DNA of 64,000 nucleotides from Escherichia phage YX22: sequence record OR776998; one strand, 5' to 3'. Each line of letters opens with the position of its first letter. Positions within the stretch are counted from its first letter, which is position 1. A model generated the notes under the pieces. The model was not told where the DNA came from and searched no databases. It saw nothing but the letters and a program-made list of their open reading frames with translations. This document shows positions 14,341 through 59,972 of this stretch, piece by piece. A program made the position numbers and the translations under genes.

Positions 14341-14874
14341 TTAGAGAGACTTGTCTGAGATGGCCTGGAAGTAACGCAGGTCAACAGTGAACTGAGTATA
14401 AGAGTCCATTGCAGACATGTCCAGTTCCAGCTGACCGAGGTTCTGAGGCCAGGTGCCCTGAAGGGTCCAGGTCTTGGTGACGTTGTCATTCGCATCCAGC
14501 AGTTCCATGATTACATCACGGAAATAATCATCTGGGTTAGCAGACGCACGGTTGTTGTTGCTGCCGTTGATGTACTGCTGCCAGACTTCGAATGCGTTGT
14601 ACGGGGCGTTGTCCACGACGTTGATGAACGTCACAGGCAGCGCCTCGAAACGACGGTCACCTGGGAATGGAAGTTCACGACCACCCCATGGGACGAGTAT
14701 TTCTCCGAGCTGGCCTGTTGGGGTATTTGTGGTCACCGCCAACAGCGAAACATCACGGATAGTATCGCTTCCAGCCACGAAGGAAGGGAAGTTAACAGTC
14801 ACACGCCAACGGTGTTGGCGCTGAACGCCACCCCCGCGTGACATAGCTGCTCTGAATTCATTAACTGTAGCCAT
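14341..14874 (-). CDS. gp19: tail tube protein, gp19-like
   Basis: C-terminal LQGTWPQNLGQLELD..TQFTVDLRYF parallels T4 gp19 IKGLWPTNVGELQLD..QTFEVTLALDYWE. Confidence 0.8.
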   Translation of the reverse strand: MATVNEFRAAMSRGGGVQRQHRWRVTVNFPSFVAGSDTIRDVSLLAVTTNTPTGQLGEILVPWGGRELPFPGDRRFEALPVTFINVVDNAPYNAFEVWQQYINGSNNNRASANPDDYFRDVIMELLDANDNVTKTWTLQGTWPQNLGQLELDMSAMDSYTQFTVDLRYFQAISDKSL

Positions 14875-14894: not shown

Positions 14895-15608
14895 TTACAC
14901 AATTCTAATTAGCTGCCAACCCGTCGTGTTCAAACGCTCTGCGGTCGCAGTTTTCCTATGATACACAGACGGTGGTGGAACTGGAATACCCTTGTCGATG
15001 TAATCATAGAGTGCTGAATATTTAAGTCCCAACCTCTCCACATATTCACGACAGTTCCCGTGGATTTCGTGTTCTTCACCGGAAGGAGATACCAATTTGA
15101 ATCGCTTTGCATGACCGTTGTTCTTGCCCTTTCTGATTCCAGTTTCAATGCATTTTCGACTAAATGATAATTTACCTTCTTCTTTCCATTCAACCCCGAT
15201 CCGACAGCTAATGATTTCTCCTGTTTTCCACCGTGGATCATCGCAATCAACTAAACCGAGATGTTCACCAGTAGAAGTCAAAACTGCTCCGTGTTTATTG
15301 GAAAATGTGGACCCGTCTCCACCCCAGGTCTTGTTGTACCCTTTCTGAGTTGACATGTGGGTTCCGTGTTGCTTTATAAGAATGATTTCCAATTCTTTTA
15401 GATCTTCCAGGGATTTGGTCTGGGCTAACACTTGAACAGAAAAGGACTCTTCTCCGTACTTTCTTATTGCTTGGTGAATAAAGTAATCAGATCCCTTCTG
15501 AGCACTATTGCAGTGCTCCCACCACCTTTGCATAGGGTCTCTCGTCGTTATCCCAATATAGGCTTTCTGATTTACTAGATTTGTAATTTTGTAAACACTT
15601 CCGATCAT
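14895..15608 (-). CDS. GIY-YIG homing endonuclease inserted between sheath and tube genes
   Basis: N-terminal VYKITN..KAYIGIT GIY-YIG motif; 237 aa; interrupts conserved gp18-gp19 adjacency. Confidence 0.7.
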   Translation of the reverse strand: MIGSVYKITNLVNQKAYIGITTRDPMQRWWEHCNSAQKGSDYFIHQAIRKYGEESFSVQVLAQTKSLEDLKELEIILIKQHGTHMSTQKGYNKTWGGDGSTFSNKHGAVLTSTGEHLGLVDCDDPRWKTGEIISCRIGVEWKEEGKLSFSRKCIETGIRKGKNNGHAKRFKLVSPSGEEHEIHGNCREYVERLGLKYSALYDYIDKGIPVPPPSVYHRKTATAERLNTTGWQLIRIV

Positions 15609-15690: not shown

Positions 15691-17586
15691 TTAAGAAGCG
15701 GCTACGATACCACCACCGGATTCGATCTCACTGAATTCCATGTCTGGACGCACGGAAGCAAAATCAAGATACACCCAATTTATACTGTATTCTGGTTTCA
15801 GCCAGATACCCGCGACCATGGTGTTGGCTGCGATAACATCAGCGGTGTTGTTGTCCTCGTCACACTTCACCATCCCGTCATAGATCGCGCCCATGTTGGC
15901 CAACTGGCGGATATATGGGCGGACAGCGTTGCTGAACAACCCACGAGTGAATGCATCGTTGTTCTCACCAAGGTAGTATTTGGCGATGGCTGCGATGTTC
16001 TGCTCTGCCATAATGAACAGACCACGAACGTTGATGCGGTCGAACGCAGATGGGCGGGTCAGACCAGTCTTGTCGCCGTACAACACGATGCCTTCGTTGG
16101 AGAAGGTGACGATGCTGTTTATCTGGTTGCGATACAGCACAGCACGCTCATCAGAAGACGCAGACCACGCCATTCGATTATAGTTGTTGTATTTACCACG
16201 GTTGTGGAACGCCGGAGATTTGTAGATACCCGCGATTTCAATGCTTCGCGCCCAAACACCTGCGGTGCCACCACAAGCCGGAATCCAACGCATTTTGTCG
16301 TTGTACTTGTCGTACACATACGCCCAGTTGTCATCCATGAAGAAGTAGGAGGAGTCGCGAACAAGGCTTTCACGCCAGGCCACAACATCATCCATCTCAC
16401 GGCCACGGTTTCCGACGACCGTATCGCGAAGAGGAGACACGAAGGACACTGTGTCTTTACGCTCAGTGGACAGGTCGATCAGTGCCTGCTGCTCAATCAG
16501 TTCTTCACAGAAACCGAACACTGGCTTGGCATCATACGCTTCGGCGTTGTTCAGTGCCTGGATAGCCGCAACACGGTTCCCAGTGTAATCGTCTACACCA
16601 CCTTCGAGTTCAATCACACCAGCAGCCAGGGTAGTGGCGAAGGTGTACACCCAATTTGAGTTGCCGTTGATCACGTCTTTGAAGTACGCATTGGATCCAT
16701 CAGATTTCTTAGAACCCTGAGCGGTCTGCACCAGTTCATACTTCTCGATGATCGTACCGGAAGCACCAACAGTGGTGACGGCAGCGGTAGCAGTCAGACC
16801 ATTCGCGTCTGGAACAATCGCAGTCGCAGCCTGAGGACCGATTGCTTTGTGAGTGACGGTGACGGTGTTGGACTTCACGACAACAGAAGAATACACGTCA
16901 GTCAGAGCCGTCAACGCAGTGCCGATTTTGGTCGCCAGGGTGGCCGGGGTGTCAGTGTCAGTGTACGCCACGTCTTCGCCAGCAACAGAGATTGAGCCTG
17001 CACCAGTAGCCGTACCGGATACAGAGATACGATCAACCTGACCAACAGCACCGGAAGAATCTGTGATGCGACCTACTTTGTCAACGATGGCGATATGGTA
17101 CTCGCCATCCTGCGGAGCATATGCGAAGTTGTTACGGAATTCCCAGGTCGGGAACAGCGCAGCGTCACAGATGTTCACAGCAATGTCGTTACCCAGAGAG
17201 CCAGCATAGCGGCCTGTCCAGGTAATAGACGCAGATGGGGACGCAGTTTCGAAGTCTAGTTTGTTGCGGATAAGGATTGCAGTCTGACCTTTGGTTACAG
17301 CGTTGCGTGCCGCCGGACCGACCACACGGGTCACCCATGCAACAGAGCTGTAAGACAGGAAGTCAGCAATCACCAAGAAGTCGGTGGCAGTTGCATCGTT
17401 TGGCTTGAAGAATTTCTTCACCAGACCAGTTTCGCCACCAGTGACCAACACAGGGAGTTCTGCTTCACCCCATTGGAATTTGCCGACAGTCGCACCCTGA
17501 ACAACAACGGATGGAGACGTCTGAAGCGTGGCATCACGCTCAGTCCACTGTACGGACGGCGCAACGCTGAAGCTTTGAGTTGCCAT
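15691..17586 (-). CDS. gp18: tail sheath protein, gp18-like
   Basis: 631 aa from ATG 17586 (AAGGAA SD); size and position match T4 gp18; late motif upstream. Confidence 0.85.
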   Translation of the reverse strand: MATQSFSVAPSVQWTERDATLQTSPSVVVQGATVGKFQWGEAELPVLVTGGETGLVKKFFKPNDATATDFLVIADFLSYSSVAWVTRVVGPAARNAVTKGQTAILIRNKLDFETASPSASITWTGRYAGSLGNDIAVNICDAALFPTWEFRNNFAYAPQDGEYHIAIVDKVGRITDSSGAVGQVDRISVSGTATGAGSISVAGEDVAYTDTDTPATLATKIGTALTALTDVYSSVVVKSNTVTVTHKAIGPQAATAIVPDANGLTATAAVTTVGASGTIIEKYELVQTAQGSKKSDGSNAYFKDVINGNSNWVYTFATTLAAGVIELEGGVDDYTGNRVAAIQALNNAEAYDAKPVFGFCEELIEQQALIDLSTERKDTVSFVSPLRDTVVGNRGREMDDVVAWRESLVRDSSYFFMDDNWAYVYDKYNDKMRWIPACGGTAGVWARSIEIAGIYKSPAFHNRGKYNNYNRMAWSASSDERAVLYRNQINSIVTFSNEGIVLYGDKTGLTRPSAFDRINVRGLFIMAEQNIAAIAKYYLGENNDAFTRGLFSNAVRPYIRQLANMGAIYDGMVKCDEDNNTADVIAANTMVAGIWLKPEYSINWVYLDFASVRPDMEFSEIESGGGIVAAS

Positions 17587-17625
17587 AATCTTATTCCTTC
17601 TCTGTAGAGTTTCGCTCAATTTGAA

Positions 17626-52050: not shown

Positions 52051-55050
52051 ATGACCGTTTTCTATACGAACGTTGCCCGCAGGGGCAATGACCTGTTGAT
52101 TCGAATTGCAGATGACATGGGTAATCGCCGTCTGTTGAAAAAGAAATTCGAACCCACTCTCTATTTACCCACGGCTGACTATTCAAATGTTGAAAAGGTC
52201 GGCCTTCTCAATGAACCCCTGGTAGCCAAGCAGTTCCCTTCCATGCGTGACGCTGATAACTATCTTGAAGAGTACAAGGAAGTCCAGGGTGCTGCCATTT
52301 ACGGGCAGACCGATTATGCATACCAGTTCATTGCCCATAGCTTTCCTGGAAAGATTGAGCCGGATTATTCCAACATCCATATTGCTAACCTCGATATCGA
52401 AGTGTTCTCCGCCGGGTGGAAAGATGGAAAGATGACCAAAGGTCCATTCCCTCACCCAACCATTGAGCAGCAGACGTTCAAAGGAAATGAGGCGCGCATT
52501 CGCCGCTTCCATAAACAAGTGCTGGCCAACCATGACTTCATCCGTGAGCACTTCCCTGGTTCTTTCATCAGCAACAACGTCACTGATCAGTTCCCTATCA
52601 TTGACAGCAACGGCAAGATCACCCAAGACATGAATGCGGCGTTCCCTATCACGCTTATCCAGCTTCAGGACATGGCGACCAATAAGTTCATGGTGTGGGG
52701 TATGCCGTGCGCGAAGGATCGTGCGAAGTTCAGATACGATCCAGAAGACGCGGAGATCGGTGGACTTGAGGTTGTCTATCAGGAGTTCACTACTGAACAA
52801 GATCTGCTGCGCTCTTTCCTGGACTTCTGGTCGGAGCGTCAGTTTGATGGCTGGACAGGCTGGAACATTGAAACGTTCGATAGCCCGTATCTTGTTGAGC
52901 GCATGAATCAGGTTCTGGGTGAGGCTGAAACGTCGCGCCTCAGTCCTTGGGGTATCATTAAGAAGCGTATCATTCGCGATAAGAAGGGCGATATCACGAC
53001 GTATCAGTTCGTGGGTTGCCCTATGCTCGATTATATGCAGATCTACAAGAAACACACGTACACCACCCGTGAACGCTACTCTCTTGACTGGATTGCGTAT
53101 TGTGAGCTGGGTGAGAAGAAGATGGACTACAGTGAGAGCAAGTCACTCTTTGATCTGTACTTCAACGACTACTGCAAACACACCCGATATGGTATCAAAG
53201 ACGTTAAGCTGGTATGGCGACTTGAACAGAAGCTGCGCCTGCTCCAGCTGATGTTCGTCCTGGCCTACCGCACCAAGTCCAACTATGAAGACGGTCTGGG
53301 CACTGTGGCTCCGTGGCTGGCCATGTGCTACTATCGTCTGTATGAGAAGGGGATAGTGCCTAAGATCCAGCGTGTATACGATGGTCCGACCGACTTTGAG
53401 GGTGCATACGTCATGGATGTGACACCAGGAATCTACTTCTGGGTCTTCTCGGAAGATTTGAACTCCCTGTATCCTCACATCATTCAGCAGTACAACCTCG
53501 GTCCAGAGACTATCGTTGGCGACAAACACCAGCGCCGTGAGATTATTGAGGCTATGTGTGAAGAGCTGGCTGCTCAGATGAATAACATGGCAACGCCGAT
53601 GCACAAACGTCGGTTGATGAAAGCCCTTCACGACAAGCTGTTGCGTGCGGTTGACGAACGCCTGCAGGTTGTTGATGAGTTGGTTGCCCTGGGTGAGTTC
53701 CACTTTGAAACCCTGCGCCGTTACAACGTGTCGTTCACGCCGAACGTTCAATTCTTCAGCAACGAGAAGATGTCGTTCCTGTCTGAAATCATGCGCGGTA
53801 TCTACAGCGACCGTAAAGTAGAGAAGGCCAAGGGTCTGAAGTATGAGCAGTGGGCTGGCTGGTGTAAAGAGATGTCGAAGGGTGACTTCCATCTTGAGTC
53901 TGCCATGAAGTCTCGCTACTATGACCCAGAGTGGTATGAAGAGCACAAGAACATTGATCTTGATGCCCTGACCGAAGTGATGAAGAAGTGGGAAGACCTG
54001 GGCGTCGCTCAAGATACCCTACAGCAAGGTCTGAAGATCTTGATGAACGCAGGTTATGGCGCTATCTCGAACGTCTGGTTCAAAGAGTACTTCAACCTCA
54101 ACATTGCCGAAGCCATCACCACATCCGGTCAGCTGATCAACAAGTGGAATAAGCGTTACACTGATGACTATCTGAACAAGCTGTGTGGTACAACAGGCCA
54201 GGACTTCGTCATCGCAGGGGATACCGACTCCAACTACATCTGCATTGAGCGTCTTGTCAAGCAGTTGTGGCCTGATGTTACTGACCATCATGCTATGGTT
54301 GATAATATCGACCAATGGATCAAAGACAACTACCAGCCGAAGACCAATGAGTGGGCACAGCTTCTGTGTAACACCATGAACGGATTTGAACAGCGCATGG
54401 TGTGGGAGCGTGAGGTCATTGCGTCAGCCGCTGTCTGGCGAGCCAAGAAGATGTATGCCATGGCCGTGTACGACAGTGAGGGTATCAAGTACGAGAAGCC
54501 GAAGATCAAGTTCAAAGGTCTGGAAGCCCGCAAGTCCACCACGCCGGAATGGTGTCGTGAACGCCTTGTCAAGTGCTATGAGAAGATCCTACTCGGCACC
54601 GAAGAGGAAGTACAGACGCTCATCTCCCAGTACAAAGAGGAGTACATGAAACTCTCTGTAGACGATATCGCCAAGGCTTCCGGCGTGTCCGACATAGAGA
54701 AGTGTGTGGCTGCTGACGGATCGTTCATCTCTGGTGCTCATTTTGCTGCAAAGGCTTGTGTGGGTTACAACCGTCTGGTTGAGAAGAACGAAGATCTGGG
54801 TCTACCGATGATCGAGTCGGGTGATAAGGTACAGATGGTGTTGTTGAAGCCAGGCAACCCATTCGGCCAGAATTACTTTGCATATCCTGAGTTCTTCCCC
54901 GAGGAGCTTGGTCTGGGTAAATGGGTGGATTATCAGGCGGCCTTTGAGAAGTCCTTCATTGATCCGATTCAGTCTATCCTCGACGTGGTCGGCTGGTCAC
55001 ACAAGCGCCGTGTGAACCTTCTTGCCATGATGCAAAAGAAGAAAGGTTGA
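52051..55050 (+). CDS. gp43: family B DNA polymerase, T4 gp43-like
   Basis: N-terminus MTVFYTNVARRGNDLL.. matches T4 MKEFYISIETVGNNIV..; SYSLDWIAYCELGEKK, VAGDTDS and KKMYA motifs; GGAGAA SD. Confidence 0.9.
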   Translation: MTVFYTNVARRGNDLLIRIADDMGNRRLLKKKFEPTLYLPTADYSNVEKVGLLNEPLVAKQFPSMRDADNYLEEYKEVQGAAIYGQTDYAYQFIAHSFPGKIEPDYSNIHIANLDIEVFSAGWKDGKMTKGPFPHPTIEQQTFKGNEARIRRFHKQVLANHDFIREHFPGSFISNNVTDQFPIIDSNGKITQDMNAAFPITLIQLQDMATNKFMVWGMPCAKDRAKFRYDPEDAEIGGLEVVYQEFTTEQDLLRSFLDFWSERQFDGWTGWNIETFDSPYLVERMNQVLGEAETSRLSPWGIIKKRIIRDKKGDITTYQFVGCPMLDYMQIYKKHTYTTRERYSLDWIAYCELGEKKMDYSESKSLFDLYFNDYCKHTRYGIKDVKLVWRLEQKLRLLQLMFVLAYRTKSNYEDGLGTVAPWLAMCYYRLYEKGIVPKIQRVYDGPTDFEGAYVMDVTPGIYFWVFSEDLNSLYPHIIQQYNLGPETIVGDKHQRREIIEAMCEELAAQMNNMATPMHKRRLMKALHDKLLRAVDERLQVVDELVALGEFHFETLRRYNVSFTPNVQFFSNEKMSFLSEIMRGIYSDRKVEKAKGLKYEQWAGWCKEMSKGDFHLESAMKSRYYDPEWYEEHKNIDLDALTEVMKKWEDLGVAQDTLQQGLKILMNAGYGAISNVWFKEYFNLNIAEAITTSGQLINKWNKRYTDDYLNKLCGTTGQDFVIAGDTDSNYICIERLVKQLWPDVTDHHAMVDNIDQWIKDNYQPKTNEWAQLLCNTMNGFEQRMVWEREVIASAAVWRAKKMYAMAVYDSEGIKYEKPKIKFKGLEARKSTTPEWCRERLVKCYEKILLGTEEEVQTLISQYKEEYMKLSVDDIAKASGVSDIEKCVAADGSFISGAHFAAKACVGYNRLVEKNEDLGLPMIESGDKVQMVLLKPGNPFGQNYFAYPEFFPEELGLGKWVDYQAAFEKSFIDPIQSILDVVGWSHKRRVNLLAMMQKKKG

Positions 55051-56239: not shown

Positions 56240-56545
56240 GTGCAAGAACAATCCAAGTTTGGGGAAACCCCAGACAAGCGTTCCGGTGATAGCGACATGG
56301 ATAGCGTGATTAACCATGTGAACAACTTCATTCGTCAGCAGGAGACTCCAACTCCTATCGGTGCAGCCAAGGCTCTTCATGATGTACTGGTGAAGATCGG
56401 CCAGCGCTCTGAAGCGGATGAAATCTTCTATAACTTTGAAGACCAGTATAAAGTGAAGTTTGAAGAAAACGGTCGTCCGCAGGTTGCTGTGTTCTGGGCA
56501 CCTTGGCTGGGCGGCGTGAGCTGGCGTATTGAGGATGCTGTGTGA
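56240..56545 (+). CDS. hypothetical protein
   Basis: 101 aa ORF, overlaps next gene start. Confidence 0.5.
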   Translation: MQEQSKFGETPDKRSGDSDMDSVINHVNNFIRQQETPTPIGAAKALHDVLVKIGQRSEADEIFYNFEDQYKVKFEENGRPQVAVFWAPWLGGVSWRIEDAV

Positions 56546-58143
56546 TGTCTCGCTACCATTACACATATAGGATAACCCATGTCCCAACTGGTAGATTCTA
56601 CGTCGGGATTCGGTCTTGTTCATGCACCCCCGAACAAGATCCCTATATGGGTTCTGGTGTGATCATCAAAAGGTTGTTGGAATCTCACCCCGCTTCTGAA
56701 TTCTTAAAGACGATAATAGAAAAGTTTGAAACCAGGTTGGAAGCATCCGACCTGGAGTCTATTATTGTTACGGAAGAGTTACTGTTGGACCCATTATGCC
56801 TGAACCTGAAATTGGGAGGAGACAATTCTATCATCCCAAACCAATTTAAGGCGGCGTTGGCTAGGACTGGCAAGAAATACAAATCTGGTATAAATCCTTG
56901 GGATGATCCAGAATACCGGGAACGTGTAATAAAATCAATAAAGGAGAACAGGGGTAATTCTCCCTACCCATTCATGGTTTCAAATGGTTATTGGTGGGTT
57001 TGGAAGGACGCCTGTAGGATCTATGATAGATGGGTGAACAACGGTGGTACTGTGAATCCTACCTGTATGCCAAAACGAGGATGTGGTTACAAATCTATCG
57101 GATTGTGGTATTCTAAACTACTGGACACAGAGTATCGTAATCTAAAGGGCGATGAGAGCGTCTTTCGTAATATGATCGCCATGTTTAAAGATGGTTGGAT
57201 TCCCAAAGAGGACAAACGTTTTATGACTATGATAAATTCTAGCGTGACGCCGGGTATTGTCGTTATTCGCGGGACAAGTGGAACGGGAAAGGGGACTCGT
57301 GTCGTTCAATTCCTTGAGTGGTTGAGAACCAAATATGAGCCAGAACTCATAGAATACGAATTCGACAAGAAGATGATCCAGGTTGGGTTTTGGTTCAAGG
57401 AAATCAATCTGGTGTTCATCGGCAAGTATACAGTGTCCAACAAATCAGGTCTAGCATCATGGACTTCCATGGATTTCATACACTCCACTCTCAAGTCTTC
57501 TGAGATGGCCAATTCGTTGTTGAAGTATCTCAAAATAAAGTTCAAAGATGCAACTATCATCTTGGAGGGGGAACCTATGATGCAGAGCCATCGTTGGCGT
57601 CCCGAGTTCGTACACCAGGACTTGGGGTTCAACAACATGGCATTCATCTCCTTTATTTACCAAGCGCGGGAAGATTACGACAAACGTATCATCGGTCGTT
57701 CTGGTAAGGCGGCGAAGGACACTGGCTGGGGAAGAAATGAACAATACACCAAGGATCACGTCAAGATCATGGGTGAGTACGCTTCCATCGGATACGAACT
57801 TGAACCAGACTCTCAGAATGAGTTGTTCATTGCAAAGGCAGCGAATGAAAATGGTGTAAAGGCAGTTGGTTGGAATATACTGAAATTCTTCGATGCCCCT
57901 CTCCACTTTATTGGTAGTTTTATTATAGATTTTGTTGGATTGAGAGGGTTGTCCAAAGAAGAGTTTCAAAAATATTGCGACACCACACCAATGTTGCGCA
58001 AGATTAAGGGTAGCAACCCTTTGGCGCACAGAGTCCCTGAGAAGCCGCAGAAGGCATCCAAAACTAAAACCAAGGCGAGCGCCCAGCCAGAAGCAACGAA
58101 GGCAGCGTCGCGCTCTCTCCTTGACCTGATGAAGAAGGGGTGA
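56542..58143 (+). CDS. GIY-YIG endonuclease domain in frame with a P-loop NMP-kinase-like domain (fusion, or two genes with kinase start near 57223)
   Basis: N-terminus YHYTYRITHVPTGRFYVGI..YMGSG; downstream GTSGTGKGT Walker A; internal ATG 57223 preceded by AGAGGA. Confidence 0.55.
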   Translation: MMSRYHYTYRITHVPTGRFYVGIRSCSCTPEQDPYMGSGVIIKRLLESHPASEFLKTIIEKFETRLEASDLESIIVTEELLLDPLCLNLKLGGDNSIIPNQFKAALARTGKKYKSGINPWDDPEYRERVIKSIKENRGNSPYPFMVSNGYWWVWKDACRIYDRWVNNGGTVNPTCMPKRGCGYKSIGLWYSKLLDTEYRNLKGDESVFRNMIAMFKDGWIPKEDKRFMTMINSSVTPGIVVIRGTSGTGKGTRVVQFLEWLRTKYEPELIEYEFDKKMIQVGFWFKEINLVFIGKYTVSNKSGLASWTSMDFIHSTLKSSEMANSLLKYLKIKFKDATIILEGEPMMQSHRWRPEFVHQDLGFNNMAFISFIYQAREDYDKRIIGRSGKAAKDTGWGRNEQYTKDHVKIMGEYASIGYELEPDSQNELFIAKAANENGVKAVGWNILKFFDAPLHFIGSFIIDFVGLRGLSKEEFQKYCDTTPMLRKIKGSNPLAHRVPEKPQKASKTKTKASAQPEATKAASRSLLDLMKKG

Positions 58144-58343: not shown

Positions 58344-58717
58344 AAATTCAAATCCCTCGCGATGCTGTGGCTGTTGCGATTGACTACACCGGAAACGCCA
58401 AGCACATTACTGCCGTGCGCCTGATTCCTGAAAAGAACTGCGTCATCCCTCAGTTCCAGCTGAATGCTAATCCGTCGTCCAAAGACTTCGGCAAGTGGTT
58501 GCAGGCTGCTCCGTTCCGTACCCAGACGAATGCTCAGATGTTCATCTCGGGTAAGACCCAAACTGCAGCCCGTCTGTGGTTCGTGACCGCTGACCGTCGC
58601 TTTGTCGATATGTGGGAACGTCCGATGGGGTTCGTGAAGCCGGAAGATATTCAGCTGGATCCTGAGCCTGAAGCTGTGGCTCCTGAAGAGGAAGCGAAAG
58701 ATGCATCATTTATCTAA
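58340..58717 (+). CDS. hypothetical protein
   Basis: 125 aa from ATG 58340 with AAGGAACC SD. Confidence 0.5.
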   Translation: MKIQIPRDAVAVAIDYTGNAKHITAVRLIPEKNCVIPQFQLNANPSSKDFGKWLQAAPFRTQTNAQMFISGKTQTAARLWFVTADRRFVDMWERPMGFVKPEDIQLDPEPEAVAPEEEAKDASFI

Positions 58718-59936
58718 AATGCCGACGGGCTATACGCCTCCGGCTGAATGGAAGTACCCGATTGACCTGGCTGTTGATTATCGCAAGCCTGAGAATCGCA
58801 TGTACCTGCTCAAGGCTTGGGTGGAGGCGCTGTCCTACACAGAAGAGCACAACCAGCAGATGCGTCTGATGGACTATGCGATCGAAGTCACTGAAGGCAT
58901 CAGCCTCGAACAGAAAGTCGAGCGCAAGATCTGGATGGCATTCCTGTGGGGTTGTTGCTATAACGCTGTCGGACCGTGGACAATCTACAGTGAGTTCCCT
59001 GTACCACCCCAGTCCAAAGAAGAGATGCAGCGCTTCTCAGACTGGTACAACCTGAACTTTGAACGCATGCGATTCGATACCGACTGTCGCTACCGCAAGT
59101 CCAAGATGATTCCGTGTGTTCAGTCCTATATTGACTGGCTGGCTGGCCGTACTCAATATGACGCTTTCCGTGGGATGTTGGTGTGCATCGATAAGACAGA
59201 ACAATTCACCCAGCTGTGGGACACGGCGATGTCCTGGAAATACTTCGGTCGCCTGAGCGCCTGGAACTTCCTGGAAGCCCTGAACATGGTCTTCGGGAAC
59301 GAATACACCATTGACGTCCCTGGGTTCATGTTGCGTGACCGTGATGGAAGCGAGTCCAACCGTAATGGCGCGGCGTTCTTGTCCAACCGTGACGATTGGG
59401 TGACTAAACACGGGAAGAAAAAGATCAACGGTTGTCCTATCACGGATGAAGAGTGTGACATCCTTGAGGCCGACCTTGAGCAGGCGTTCCAGGATTGTGT
59501 GGCTGAGTTCGGGCACCTGACGTTCATCAACCGCCTGAACTTTGAAACCTCCGGTGCTTGTTGGCTGAAGAAATTCTTCCGACTGAAGAATACCCGTTAC
59601 ATCGGGTGGGACGCAGAGCGTACCTGGGATGAGATAGACTACATGGAACGCGTCTGGCCTGAATACTCCTGCGCAGCGCTCTGGGAAGCCCGTTCTCTCT
59701 GGCTGCCAGATACCCTGTTGTGTGAAAAGGCTCCTGCAGGGCACGTTCCAGGCGTCCAGAAGTGGAAGATGCCTGTGTTCTTTGAGACTGGTGTTCCTCT
59801 GCATATCTGGCACCTGCAAAGGGGTACGCGCTGGGAACCGTCCGAGGTATGTACGAACCTGAAGATGCCTGTGCGCAAGGTTGAGGACAAGCCGAAGTCC
59901 AGCAGCGTCAACCTCATGACACTCTTGAAACGCTGA
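58701..59936 (+). CDS. hypothetical 411-aa protein (DNA-modification enzyme candidate by context only)
   Basis: Long ORF overlapping upstream gene; Trp/Cys-rich; no motif recognised. Confidence 0.5.
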   Translation: MHHLSKMPTGYTPPAEWKYPIDLAVDYRKPENRMYLLKAWVEALSYTEEHNQQMRLMDYAIEVTEGISLEQKVERKIWMAFLWGCCYNAVGPWTIYSEFPVPPQSKEEMQRFSDWYNLNFERMRFDTDCRYRKSKMIPCVQSYIDWLAGRTQYDAFRGMLVCIDKTEQFTQLWDTAMSWKYFGRLSAWNFLEALNMVFGNEYTIDVPGFMLRDRDGSESNRNGAAFLSNRDDWVTKHGKKKINGCPITDEECDILEADLEQAFQDCVAEFGHLTFINRLNFETSGACWLKKFFRLKNTRYIGWDAERTWDEIDYMERVWPEYSCAALWEARSLWLPDTLLCEKAPAGHVPGVQKWKMPVFFETGVPLHIWHLQRGTRWEPSEVCTNLKMPVRKVEDKPKSSSVNLMTLLKR

Positions 59937-59972
59937 TATAAATATCCTCGCCTATAAAGCGAGGATATTATC

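What the first reader, a model, noticed from the sequence alone, without database searches (positions are those of the whole stretch)
56542..58143. GIY-YIG endonuclease domain fused in frame to a P-loop kinase
The first ~225 aa carry a GIY-YIG signature (YHYTYRITHVPTGRFYVGI, YMGSG). The remaining ~305 aa carry an adenylate-kinase-type P-loop (GTSGTGKGT). There is no stop between them. An internal ATG at 57223 with AGAGGA 12 nt upstream could start a separate kinase. Either a homing endonuclease has inserted in frame upstream of the kinase and lost its stop, or this is a genuine two-domain protein.
Basis: partly seen in the sequence, partly recalled or inferred. Interest (0 to 1): 0.6.

Follow-up and report, generated by a model that had tools for sequence, protein, structure and literature searches.

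The report
Mobile homing-endonuclease–DNA-kinase fusion gene
A phage gene joins a complete selfish DNA-cutting enzyme (a Seg-type GIY-YIG homing endonuclease) in one reading frame to the kinase that starts chemical modification of the phage's thymines, and this old fusion appears to move between phage genera as one cassette that replaces the resident kinase.

Summary

The fusion is intact in 28 phage genomes and in metagenomic relatives down to 38% identity. Its kinase domains form one clade apart from all stand-alone kinases, and both halves are under purifying selection.

Phages with 98-100% identical flanks (RPN242; Taipeivirus relatives of KpS110; Cygsa01 at 78-92% neighbour protein identity) carry a stand-alone kinase only 40-50% identical. 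The boundaries are the same in two genera: the gene start, and the codons for PLAHRVPEK. I infer a mobile endonuclease that carries its own kinase allele. Nuclease activity, its target and possible internal initiation at the invariant Met229 are untested.

The parts
56240..56545 (+). Upstream gene (DUF7254, 101 aa). Its last ~100 nt are unusually conserved between genera and contain the RBS (GAGGA 56529-56533) used by whichever gene follows. The left edge of the cassette lies at its stop codon.
   Evidence: Pfam PF23912 E=1.4e-51. Boundary alignment. Third-codon-position identity 0.59-0.72 in the last ~35 codons against 0.38 in the first 66.
56542..58143 (+). Fusion ORF, 532 aa from ATG 56545 (GTG 56542 is the only start available in LIMEstone1, KpS110 and PMBT18).
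56545..56829 (+). GIY-YIG nuclease domain (aa 1-95). It retains Y8, Y19, G21, R23, D32, Y34, G36-S-G38, H48, R64, E71, N87 and G91-G92.
56830..57228 (+). Linker plus the C-terminal region of the endonuclease module (aa 96-228). It ends in the invariant motif GDESVFRNM..MFKDGW.P..D and is presumed to bind DNA.
   Evidence: Free-standing endonucleases P0087 (288 aa) and P0167 (281 aa) align over profile positions 3-231 and end 9-16 residues after the same GWIPxED motif. PHROG endonuclease C-terminal matches. Weak HTH hint in P0087. dN/dS 0.13-0.26, apart from 0.67 in the nearly identical pair window/pSal-SNUABM-02 where substitutions are few. The fold is not resolved: pLDDT <50 for residues 138-185.
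57207..57231 (+). Junction: AGAGGA 57207-57212, ATG 57223 (Met227, not conserved) and ATG 57229 (Met229, invariant in all fusions). Possible internal start or relic of the ancestral kinase start.
   Evidence: There is no consistent excess of synonymous-site conservation here in distant pairs. The GAGG codes for conserved acidic residues of the endonuclease motif.
57250..58017 (+). 5-hmdU DNA kinase core (HMUD2; aa 236-491), with the Walker A motif GTSGTGKGT at 57271-57297. This is the cassette-borne allele, about 50% identical to the resident stand-alone allele of close relatives.
   Evidence: Pfam PF18747 E=4e-156. 47% identity to ViI gp243. dN/dS ~0.04. Sliding identity.
58018..58143 (+). 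C-terminal tail (PLAHRVPEK... to the stop), of the recipient genus's own type. The right edge of the cassette lies at the PLAHRV codons.
   Evidence: The window tail matches the Ag3/SKML-39 tail, and the KpS110 tail matches the 0507-KN2-1 tail.
58701..59936 (+). Downstream pathway partner: amino acid:DNA transferase (aGPT-Pplase2/ADDT, ViI gp247 type), which uses the kinase's product.
   Evidence: Pfam PF18724 E=4.5e-60. Synteny with ViI. Function from PMC8989533.
55451..56230 (+). NT5C-type deoxyribonucleotidase, a conserved neighbour of the locus in all lineages.
   Evidence: Pfam PF06941. Contexts.

Best explanation
The gene encodes a long-standing two-domain protein, not a recent accident.

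Shown:
- Residues 1-228 are a complete Seg-type GIY-YIG homing endonuclease, made of a nuclease domain, a linker and a C-terminal DNA-binding region.
- Residues 236-491 are the core of a 5-hmdU DNA kinase of the ViI gp243 / HMUD2 type. By homology to a tested enzyme, it phosphorylates 5-hydroxymethyl-dU in phage DNA so that the neighbouring amino acid:DNA transferase can hypermodify thymine.
- The fusion arose once. It is kept intact and under purifying selection in both halves.
- It occurs patchily in at least three phage backgrounds: Aglimvirinae, Taipeivirus and Cygsa01-like Pseudomonas phages. Their close relatives carry a very different stand-alone kinase at the same site. In the two genera where the junctions were aligned (Aglimvirinae and Taipeivirus) the cassette edges are the same.

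Inferred:
- The cassette (endonuclease module plus its own kinase core) is a mobile unit.
- The endonuclease cuts genomes that carry the other alleles, at or near the DUF7254/kinase junction.
- Break repair copies the whole cassette, using the two short conserved blocks at its edges as homology.
- The diverged kinase core both replaces the lost function and is immune to cutting.
- Translational fusion ties the endonuclease's expression and retention to a useful gene.

My probabilities: genuine conserved fusion about 0.95; moves as a cassette about 0.8; the endonuclease is active and drives that movement about 0.5-0.6.
For: Domain identity:
- C-terminal half: HMUD2 E=4e-156. ViI gp243 sits at the syntenic position and is 47% identical. 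gp243 phosphorylates 5-hmdU DNA in vitro (PMC8989533).

Age and integrity:
- Intact fusions at 80, 78, 64 and 38-40% identity.
- Only two 50%-identity clusters of fusions among 1.84 billion representative proteins.
- Kinase domains of fusions are monophyletic in a neighbour-joining tree.
- dN/dS: nuclease 0.07-0.29, linker plus DNA-binding region 0.13-0.26, kinase 0.04.
- Family-invariant nuclease residues are retained.

Cassette behaviour:
- Window against RPN242: 98-100% identity on both flanks, about 50% between 56,540 and 58,017.
- KpS110 against 0507-KN2-1 and PWKp5: the same pattern with the same edges, and the C-terminal tail is genus-specific.
- L005 contig against Cygsa01: neighbours 78-92% aa identical, kinase 40%.
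- There are three allelic states at one site: kinase only, SegD-like endonuclease gene plus kinase, and the fusion.
- dS differs between domains within genome pairs, and LIMEstone1 and KpS110 share a 5' end, which shows continuing exchange.
Against: - No cleavage activity, target site or homing has been shown for this protein or any close relative.
- The Arg expected in helix 1 (window R43) is K or N in P0004 and P0005, and it varies in the free-standing family too.
- Gly49, near-invariant in the family, is Pro in the window's clade.
- Cassette replacement could result from ordinary recombination between co-infecting phages plus selection, without the endonuclease.
- Purifying selection on the N-terminal half would also fit a co-opted DNA-binding role.
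- The DNA-binding region is poorly modelled.
- ViI-type phages have a second 5-hmdU kinase (gp67), so the cargo may not be essential. I did not find that paralogue in this 64-kb window, and the rest of the genome was not available.
- The tree is a simple neighbour-joining tree without support values.
Confidence: 0.6

Rival explanations
1. Domesticated endonuclease module. The N-terminal half no longer acts as a homing nuclease and serves the kinase instead, for example by tethering it to DNA or giving it sequence or context preference. The cassette spreads by ordinary recombination and selection.
For: - The fusion has persisted to 38% identity, whereas free-standing endonuclease genes usually decay.
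- The most conserved stretch of the N-terminal half is the end of the DNA-binding region and the junction.
- The substrate of the kinase is DNA itself (PMC8989533).
- Positions 43 and 49 vary or depart from the family consensus.
Against: - The near-invariant nuclease-core residues (Y8, Y19, G21, E71, N87, G91-G92) are kept in both deep clades, and the nuclease domain has dN/dS 0.07-0.29.
- The patchy distribution, with identical cassette edges in genomes that are otherwise 98-100% identical, is the classical signature of an active homing element.
- A second, unrelated GIY-YIG gene occupies exactly the same site in other phages.
Confidence: 0.22
2. Two products from one ORF. Besides, or instead of, the 532-aa protein, translation starts internally at the invariant ATG 57229 (Met229) and yields a free ~304-aa kinase, so the 'fusion' is functionally an overlapping gene pair. 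This is compatible with either of the readings above.
For: - Met229 is invariant in all fusions down to 38% identity.
- A GAGG lies 9-16 nt upstream of it in every lineage.
- In Ag3 and RPN242 the separate SegD-like gene overlaps the kinase start by 8 nt, so the two arrangements differ by very little.
Against: - The GAGG is encoded by acidic residues that are also conserved in free-standing endonucleases (GWIPxED).
- Synonymous sites around the junction are not consistently more conserved in distant pairs.
- Stand-alone kinases start 8 residues before the P-loop Gly, not 14.
- No promoter-like excess was found inside the gene.
- The frame is never broken in any of the genomes.
Confidence: 0.3
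3. Recent in-frame insertion of a homing endonuclease gene upstream of the resident kinase, with loss of its stop codon in this genome. An assembly or sequencing artefact would be a related possibility.
For: Free-standing GIY-YIG genes do insert at exactly this site, with an 8-nt overlap that a single frameshift could convert into a fusion.
Against: - The kinase half is not the resident allele: about 50% against 96% identity among resident alleles.
- The endonuclease half is only 24% identical over 86 aa to the SegD-like gene found at the site.
- The same fusion is present in 28 records and in distant metagenomic relatives.
Confidence: 0.02

Closest known systems
Free-standing Seg-type GIY-YIG homing endonucleases of T4-like phages (SegA-G), which spread by intronless homing with co-conversion of flanking markers
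   Same: - Same nuclease fold and family motifs, and the same two-part build of nuclease plus C-terminal DNA-binding region.
- Sits between conserved genes.
- Present or absent among near-identical genomes.
- A different endonuclease gene can occupy the same site, as described for segH/hef against mobC/mobE (cited in PMC3296691).
   Different: - It has no stop codon of its own and is read through into the neighbouring enzyme.
- The unit that is swapped includes about 770 nt of a highly diverged copy of the neighbouring gene, not just the endonuclease gene.
- It has persisted intact to 38% identity.
- Activity has not been tested.
ViI gp243 and other stand-alone 5-hmdU DNA kinases (Pfam HMUD2, 'P-loop nucleotide kinase 2')
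   Same: - Full-length match to the family, 47% identity to gp243, and the same genome position four genes upstream of the aGPT-Pplase2/ADDT transferase.
- Walker A and the other invariant motifs are retained.
- Strong purifying selection.
   Different: - It carries a 228-aa endonuclease at its N-terminus.
- It belongs to a separate clade of the family.
- Every other HMUD2 kinase among the best 150 matches of the profile search of 1.84 billion representative proteins is stand-alone.
Inteins and intron-encoded endonucleases (a homing endonuclease embedded in a host gene)
   Same: A homing-type endonuclease is physically merged with a useful host gene, which shelters it from loss.
   Different: There are no splicing domains and no intron. 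The endonuclease is expected to remain part of the mature protein, or to be bypassed by internal initiation. It is attached at the N-terminus rather than inserted at a conserved active-site position.
Single-chain restriction-modification enzymes (Type IIG/IIC)
   Same: One polypeptide combines a nuclease and a DNA-modifying enzyme.
   Different: The N-terminal half is a full-length homologue of homing endonucleases with their own DNA-binding region. There is no evidence that the nuclease is controlled by the modification. This is a resemblance only.

Membership tests
GIY-YIG nuclease superfamily (Seg-like homing endonuclease branch) | Significant match to curated family profiles (Pfam PF01541 GIY-YIG or PF19835 SegE_GIY-YIG) | tested here: inconclusive
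   The window protein reaches only 13.9 bits against a cut-off of 25 for PF19835 and does not hit PF01541. Fusion P0007 passes PF19835 (28.9 bits). The full-length free-standing homologues P0087 and P0167 pass PF01541 at 27.4 and 26.1 bits against 22.6. PHROG 314 'homing endonuclease' matches at E=5e-24.
GIY-YIG nuclease superfamily (Seg-like homing endonuclease branch) | GIY-YIG alpha/beta fold | tested here: met
GIY-YIG nuclease superfamily (Seg-like homing endonuclease branch) | Conserved motif residues (Tyr of 'GIY', Tyr-x-Gly of 'YIG', catalytic Glu, structural Asn, helix-1 Arg) | tested here: met
   Y8, Y19, G21, E71 and N87 are invariant in all fusions and in 96-100% of 104 free-standing relatives. 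The helix-1 basic residue is R43 in the window but K or N in P0004 and P0005, and it is variable in the family. Assignment to I-TevI residues is by motif order, not by superposition.
GIY-YIG nuclease superfamily (Seg-like homing endonuclease branch) | Site-specific DNA cleavage and biased inheritance (homing) | not testable with these tools
   The only evidence is indirect: presence/absence polymorphism with sharp shared boundaries in near-identical genomes.
5-hmdU DNA kinase, HMUD2 type (ViI gp243) | Full-length match above the curated threshold | tested here: met
   PF18747, 519 bits against a cut-off of 25, profile positions 2-298 of 298.
5-hmdU DNA kinase, HMUD2 type (ViI gp243) | Walker A P-loop and family-invariant motifs intact | tested here: met
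   G243-x-S-G-T-G-K-G-T-R, SNKS..SWTSMD, EGEP and GRSGK are invariant across the fusions. dN/dS is about 0.04.
5-hmdU DNA kinase, HMUD2 type (ViI gp243) | Genomic association with the thymidine-hypermodification genes | tested here: met
   ADDT/aGPT-Pplase2 lies at 58701..59936 and NT5C upstream. The same neighbours occur in all fusion contigs. Gene order is the same as ViI gp243...gp247.
5-hmdU DNA kinase, HMUD2 type (ViI gp243) | ATP-dependent phosphorylation of 5-hmdU in DNA | not testable with these tools
   Shown for ViI gp243 in PMC8989533. Inferred here from 47% identity.
   No ADK, guanylate kinase or other NMP-kinase Pfam family appears at E<=1. Only HMUD2 and a sub-threshold AAA_22 hit are reported. 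No NCBIfam model matches, and no solved-structure relative was found by sequence.

The most novel reading that the evidence does not exclude
The nuclease and the kinase work together as a single-chain self/non-self device. The kinase starts the hypermodification that marks the phage's own DNA. The fused GIY-YIG nuclease, guided by its DNA-binding region, cuts DNA that lacks the mark or carries a rival allele, such as co-infecting relatives or host DNA. That would make it a phage-borne, restriction-modification-like competition weapon. A milder version is that the endonuclease-derived DNA-binding module gives the kinase sequence preference and so sets which thymines are hypermodified.
Probability: 0.12. 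Interest if true: 0.8.

Novelty: new variant of a known kind. Interest (0 to 1): 0.55.

Why it matters
Free-standing homing endonuclease genes are expected to invade, become fixed and then decay. This one has lost its own stop codon, is translated together with a DNA-modification enzyme, has stayed intact to 38% identity, and seems to travel with its own copy of the enzyme. That suggests a way for a selfish gene to persist: it becomes inseparable from a useful cargo and replaces the resident allele instead of inserting beside it.

The case is directly testable. Near-isogenic phage pairs that differ only in this cassette already exist in collections, for example ZQ1, PC3 or vB_CECAV_050 against RPN242, and KpS110 against 0507-KN2-1.

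For work on thymidine hypermodification, it identifies a distinct clade of 5-hmdU DNA kinases that carry a DNA-binding, and possibly DNA-cutting, module. This could affect where modification occurs.

For annotation, the gene is currently named 'homing endonuclease', 'endonuclease', 'P-loop nucleotide kinase 2', 'phosphotransferase' or 'hypothetical protein' in different records. A stand-alone kinase (Dickeya phage Coodle) has inherited the name 'homing endonuclease' from it. I found no paper in the searchable library that describes the fusion. The LIMEstone1 paper lists it only as a SegB-like free-standing endonuclease.

Tried and rejected
- A word-indexed protein search with the N-terminal half alone returned nothing, not even the fusions themselves. 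I treat this as a tool failure, not as evidence.
- phmmer of the N-terminal half against PDB sequences gave only chance hits. A profile of 66 relatives reached only the I-TevI DNA-binding domain at E=0.014, driven by NUMOD3-bearing members.
- The full-length AF2 model built from 7 sequences was poor for residues 88-218, and its Foldseek search gave only weak P-loop GTPase matches. The N-half model with 66 sequences resolved the nuclease domain but not the DNA-binding region.
- I looked for nucleotide-level constraint around Met229 (synonymous codon identity in sliding windows) and found no consistent signal.
- I looked for an internal promoter or terminator and found nothing above shuffled expectation. 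There is no T4-type late promoter motif inside the gene; the nearest is at 59937.
- NCBIfam has no model for the protein.
- I looked for a second 5-hmdU kinase (HMUDK_hel type) in the window and found none.
- The Aravind-group paper that first defined these kinases could not be read, so I cannot exclude that it mentions the fusion.
- One Pfam call failed on a wrong coordinate guess.
Full report
**What is in the sequence**

It runs from GTG 56542 or ATG 56545 to the TGA at 58141-58143 on the + strand and encodes 532-533 aa with no internal stop. Its start overlaps the stop of the upstream gene (GTGTGATG), with GAGGA at 56529-56533.

The genes from the DNA polymerase (52051..55050) to 59936 are tightly packed on the + strand with overlapping stops and starts. 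No promoter or terminator signal above shuffled expectation lies inside the ORF.

The quoted motifs are all present. The ATG at 57223 and the AGAGGA (57207-57212, spacer 10 nt rather than 12) are also there.

**What the two halves are**

*C-terminal half.* Residues 236-531 match Pfam PF18747 (HMUD2, '5-hmdU DNA kinase 2') end to end at E = 4e-156. No adenylate or guanylate kinase family is hit.
- The window comes from an Ackermannviridae phage. It is 98.7% identical over this region to Salmonella phage vB_CECAV_050, 98.3% to Escherichia phages PC3, PH4 and ZQ1, and about 92% to Dickeya phage LIMEstone1.
- In Salmonella phage ViI the gene at the same position is gp243 (Vi01_196, YP_004327565), with the order polymerase, small ORF, NT5C, DUF7254, kinase, two small ORFs, gp247.
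- ViI gp243 is 47% identical to the window's kinase domain over its whole length.
- Lee et al. (NAR 2021/2022, PMC8989533) showed that ViI gp243 phosphorylates 5-hmdU in DNA, and that gp247 (aGPT-Pplase2) then transfers serine onto the phosphorylated base.
- The window's ORF 58701..59936 is the gp247 homologue (Pfam ADDT, E = 4.5e-60).
- The C-terminal half is therefore a DNA-base kinase of the thymidine-hypermodification pathway.

*N-terminal half.*
- It misses Pfam thresholds by itself (SegE_GIY-YIG E = 0.067).
- It matches PHROG 314 'homing endonuclease' at 5e-24 over residues 1-224.
- A profile of the fusions finds thousands of free-standing GIY-YIG endonucleases (8,613 proteins at E <= 1e-10, including the kinases).
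- Two of them, P0087 (288 aa) and P0167 (281 aa), align with the whole N-terminal half up to profile position 228-231. They end 9-16 residues after the same 'MFK(D/E/N)GWIPxED' motif that precedes the kinase here. Both pass the Pfam GIY-YIG gathering score.
- In an alignment with 104 free-standing relatives, the near-invariant family residues Y8, Y19, G21, H/R23, D32, Y34, G36-S-G38, Y/H48, R64, E71, N87 and G91-G92 are all retained in the fusions. The one exception is Gly49, which is Pro in the window's clade.
- Residues 96-228 are poorly modelled. Their role as the DNA-binding part is inferred from the architecture of the family and from a weak HTH hint in P0087.
- The N-terminal half is therefore a complete Seg-type homing endonuclease, not a fragment.

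**Recent accident or real two-domain protein?**

Six lines of evidence point to a real, old fusion.
- The same uninterrupted fusion is present in 28 phage records: Limestonevirus, several Agtrevirus-like phages of Salmonella, Escherichia and Enterobacter, Yersinia phage CAU_YEP3, Salmonella phages PMBT18 and UTK0004, and the Taipeivirus KpS110.
- Metagenomic relatives are 80, 78, 64 and 38-40% identical (P0002-P0007). All have both halves and lie next to the same pathway genes: NT5C, ADDT and HMUDK_hel.
- An exhaustive profile search of 1.84 billion representative proteins found only two 50%-identity clusters with both domains. Every other kinase among the 150 best hits is stand-alone.
- In a neighbour-joining tree the kinase domains of all fusions form one clade, separate from all stand-alone kinases. 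The tree has no support values.
- Both halves are under purifying selection. dN/dS is 0.07-0.29 for the nuclease domain, 0.13-0.26 for the linker plus DNA-binding region and about 0.04 for the kinase.
- The stretch across the junction (GDESVFRNM..MFKDGW.P..D....M..SSV....VV.RG.SGTGKGTR) is among the best conserved in the protein.

Annotated starts at Met35 (PMBT18, P0003, PHROG 15209) are gene-caller choices. The upstream 34 codons, which encode the GIY-YIG hairpin, are intact and in frame behind a GTG start.

At this site there are three states.
- Kinase only: SKML-39, 0507-KN2-1, ViI.
- An unrelated SegD-like GIY-YIG gene plus kinase, overlapping by 8 nt: Ag3, RPN242, PWKp5.
- The fusion.

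The resident kinases of the first two states are 96% identical to each other. The window's kinase domain is only about 50% identical to them, except for the last ~41 residues, which are nearly identical. The window's endonuclease half is only 24% identical over 86 aa to the SegD-like protein.

Sliding-window comparison with RPN242 shows 98-100% nucleotide identity on both flanks and about 50% between ~56,540 and ~58,017. Base-level alignments place the left edge at the stop/start overlap behind DUF7254. They place the right edge at the codons for PLAHRVPEK.

The same pattern recurs in Taipeivirus. KpS110 is the only record there with the fusion. Its relatives are 98-100% identical on both sides and carry the stand-alone or the SegD-plus-kinase allele. 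The edges are the same, and KpS110's C-terminal tail is the Taipeivirus tail, not the window's.

A third background shows the same replacement, although its junctions were not mapped at base level. The contig carrying P0007 resembles Pseudomonas phage Cygsa01, with neighbouring proteins 78-92% identical. Cygsa01 has a stand-alone kinase that is only 40% identical.

Within the fusion clade, dS differs several-fold between domains of the same genome pair. LIMEstone1 and KpS110 share their first 40 codons almost base for base. Pieces of the cassette therefore continue to be exchanged.

**Most likely mechanism**

- *Shown:* a conserved fusion of a complete Seg-like endonuclease with a diverged 5-hmdU DNA kinase, replacing the core of the resident kinase gene in at least three phage backgrounds. 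The boundaries, mapped in two of them, are the same.
- *Inferred:* the endonuclease cuts genomes with the other alleles near the DUF7254/kinase junction. Repair copies the whole heterologous block, using the two short conserved sequences at its edges. The imported kinase core supplies the function and, being about 50% different, is not a target.
- The last ~100 nt of DUF7254 are markedly more conserved between genera at third codon positions than the rest of that gene, also in alleles without an endonuclease (0.59-0.72 against 0.38). This fits a preserved target site or repeated co-conversion. The block also holds the RBS for the following gene, so this evidence is soft.
- Cleavage, target site and biased inheritance are untested.

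**Rivals**

- *Domestication.* The N-terminal half may serve the kinase as a DNA-binding module. This fits the long persistence and the variable residue at position 43. It fits less well with retention of the nuclease core and with the homing-like distribution.
- *Internal initiation.* Translation may also start at the invariant ATG 57229. Met229 is conserved in every fusion, with a GAGG 9-16 nt upstream. That GAGG encodes acidic residues also conserved in free-standing endonucleases, and synonymous sites there show no consistent extra constraint.
- *Recent insertion or artefact.* This reading is contradicted by the comparisons above.

**Novelty**

GenBank records name the gene 'homing endonuclease' (LIMEstone1 F-LimXI, described in PMC3296691 as a SegB-like free-standing GIY-YIG endonuclease with ORF187 as downstream gene), 'endonuclease', 'P-loop nucleotide kinase 2', 'phosphotransferase' or 'hypothetical protein'.

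Full-text searches found no paper that describes the fusion or its cassette behaviour. The paper that first defined these kinases could not be read.

I class this as a new variant of a known kind. The parts and the general logic of intronless homing are known. The translational fusion to a diverged copy of the neighbouring enzyme, its age and its movement as a unit are not.

Noticed in passing
window 14895..15608 (-): A separate free-standing GIY-YIG homing-endonuclease-like ORF of 237 aa (MIGSVYKITNLVNQKAYIGIT...) lies between a tail-tube-like ORF (14341..14874) and a sheath-like ORF (15691..17619). It is 29.5% identical to the Ag3 SegD-like protein.
   Followed up: partly
window 56440..56541 (3' end of the DUF7254 gene): The last ~35 codons are far more conserved between Aglimvirinae and Taipeivirus at third codon positions (0.59-0.72) than the first 66 codons (0.38), also in alleles without any endonuclease gene. 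The block contains the RBS of the following gene and ends exactly where three alternative alleles diverge. It may be an endonuclease target or a co-conversion tract.
   Followed up: partly
window 52051..55050 (+): The DNA polymerase gene is one uninterrupted 999-aa ORF here. In LIMEstone1 the polymerase is split into pieces by the elements I-LimII and I-LimIII.
   Followed up: no
L003 3046..3732 (Ag3), L002 3046..3732 (RPN242), L014 1751..2437 (PWKp5): An unrelated SegD-like GIY-YIG gene (Pfam GIY-YIG E=4e-8) occupies exactly the same intergenic site in other phages of two genera. Its stop lies inside codons 2-3 of the kinase, so a single frameshift would create another fusion.
   Followed up: partly
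P0033 (Dickeya phage Coodle, 309 aa): A stand-alone kinase is named 'putative homing endonuclease F-LimXI' in public databases. The name was apparently transferred from the kinase half of the fusion.
   Followed up: no
L001 3043..3162 and L012 2547..2666: LIMEstone1 (Limestonevirus) and KpS110 (Taipeivirus) share the first 40 codons of the fusion, with 35 of 39 synonymous codons identical, although the rest of the gene is much more diverged. This is intragenic mosaicism across genera.
   Followed up: partly
L016 4637..5602 (Pseudomonas phage Cygsa01): The stand-alone kinase of this phage has an ~80-aa N-terminal extension unrelated to the GIY-YIG module. P0064 (318 aa) has a similar ~75-aa extension.
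   Followed up: no
window 59937..59944 (+): A T4-type late-promoter motif TATAAATA lies directly after the ADDT gene, at the position where LIMEstone1 has an annotated late promoter. It is one of only two copies in the window.
   Followed up: no
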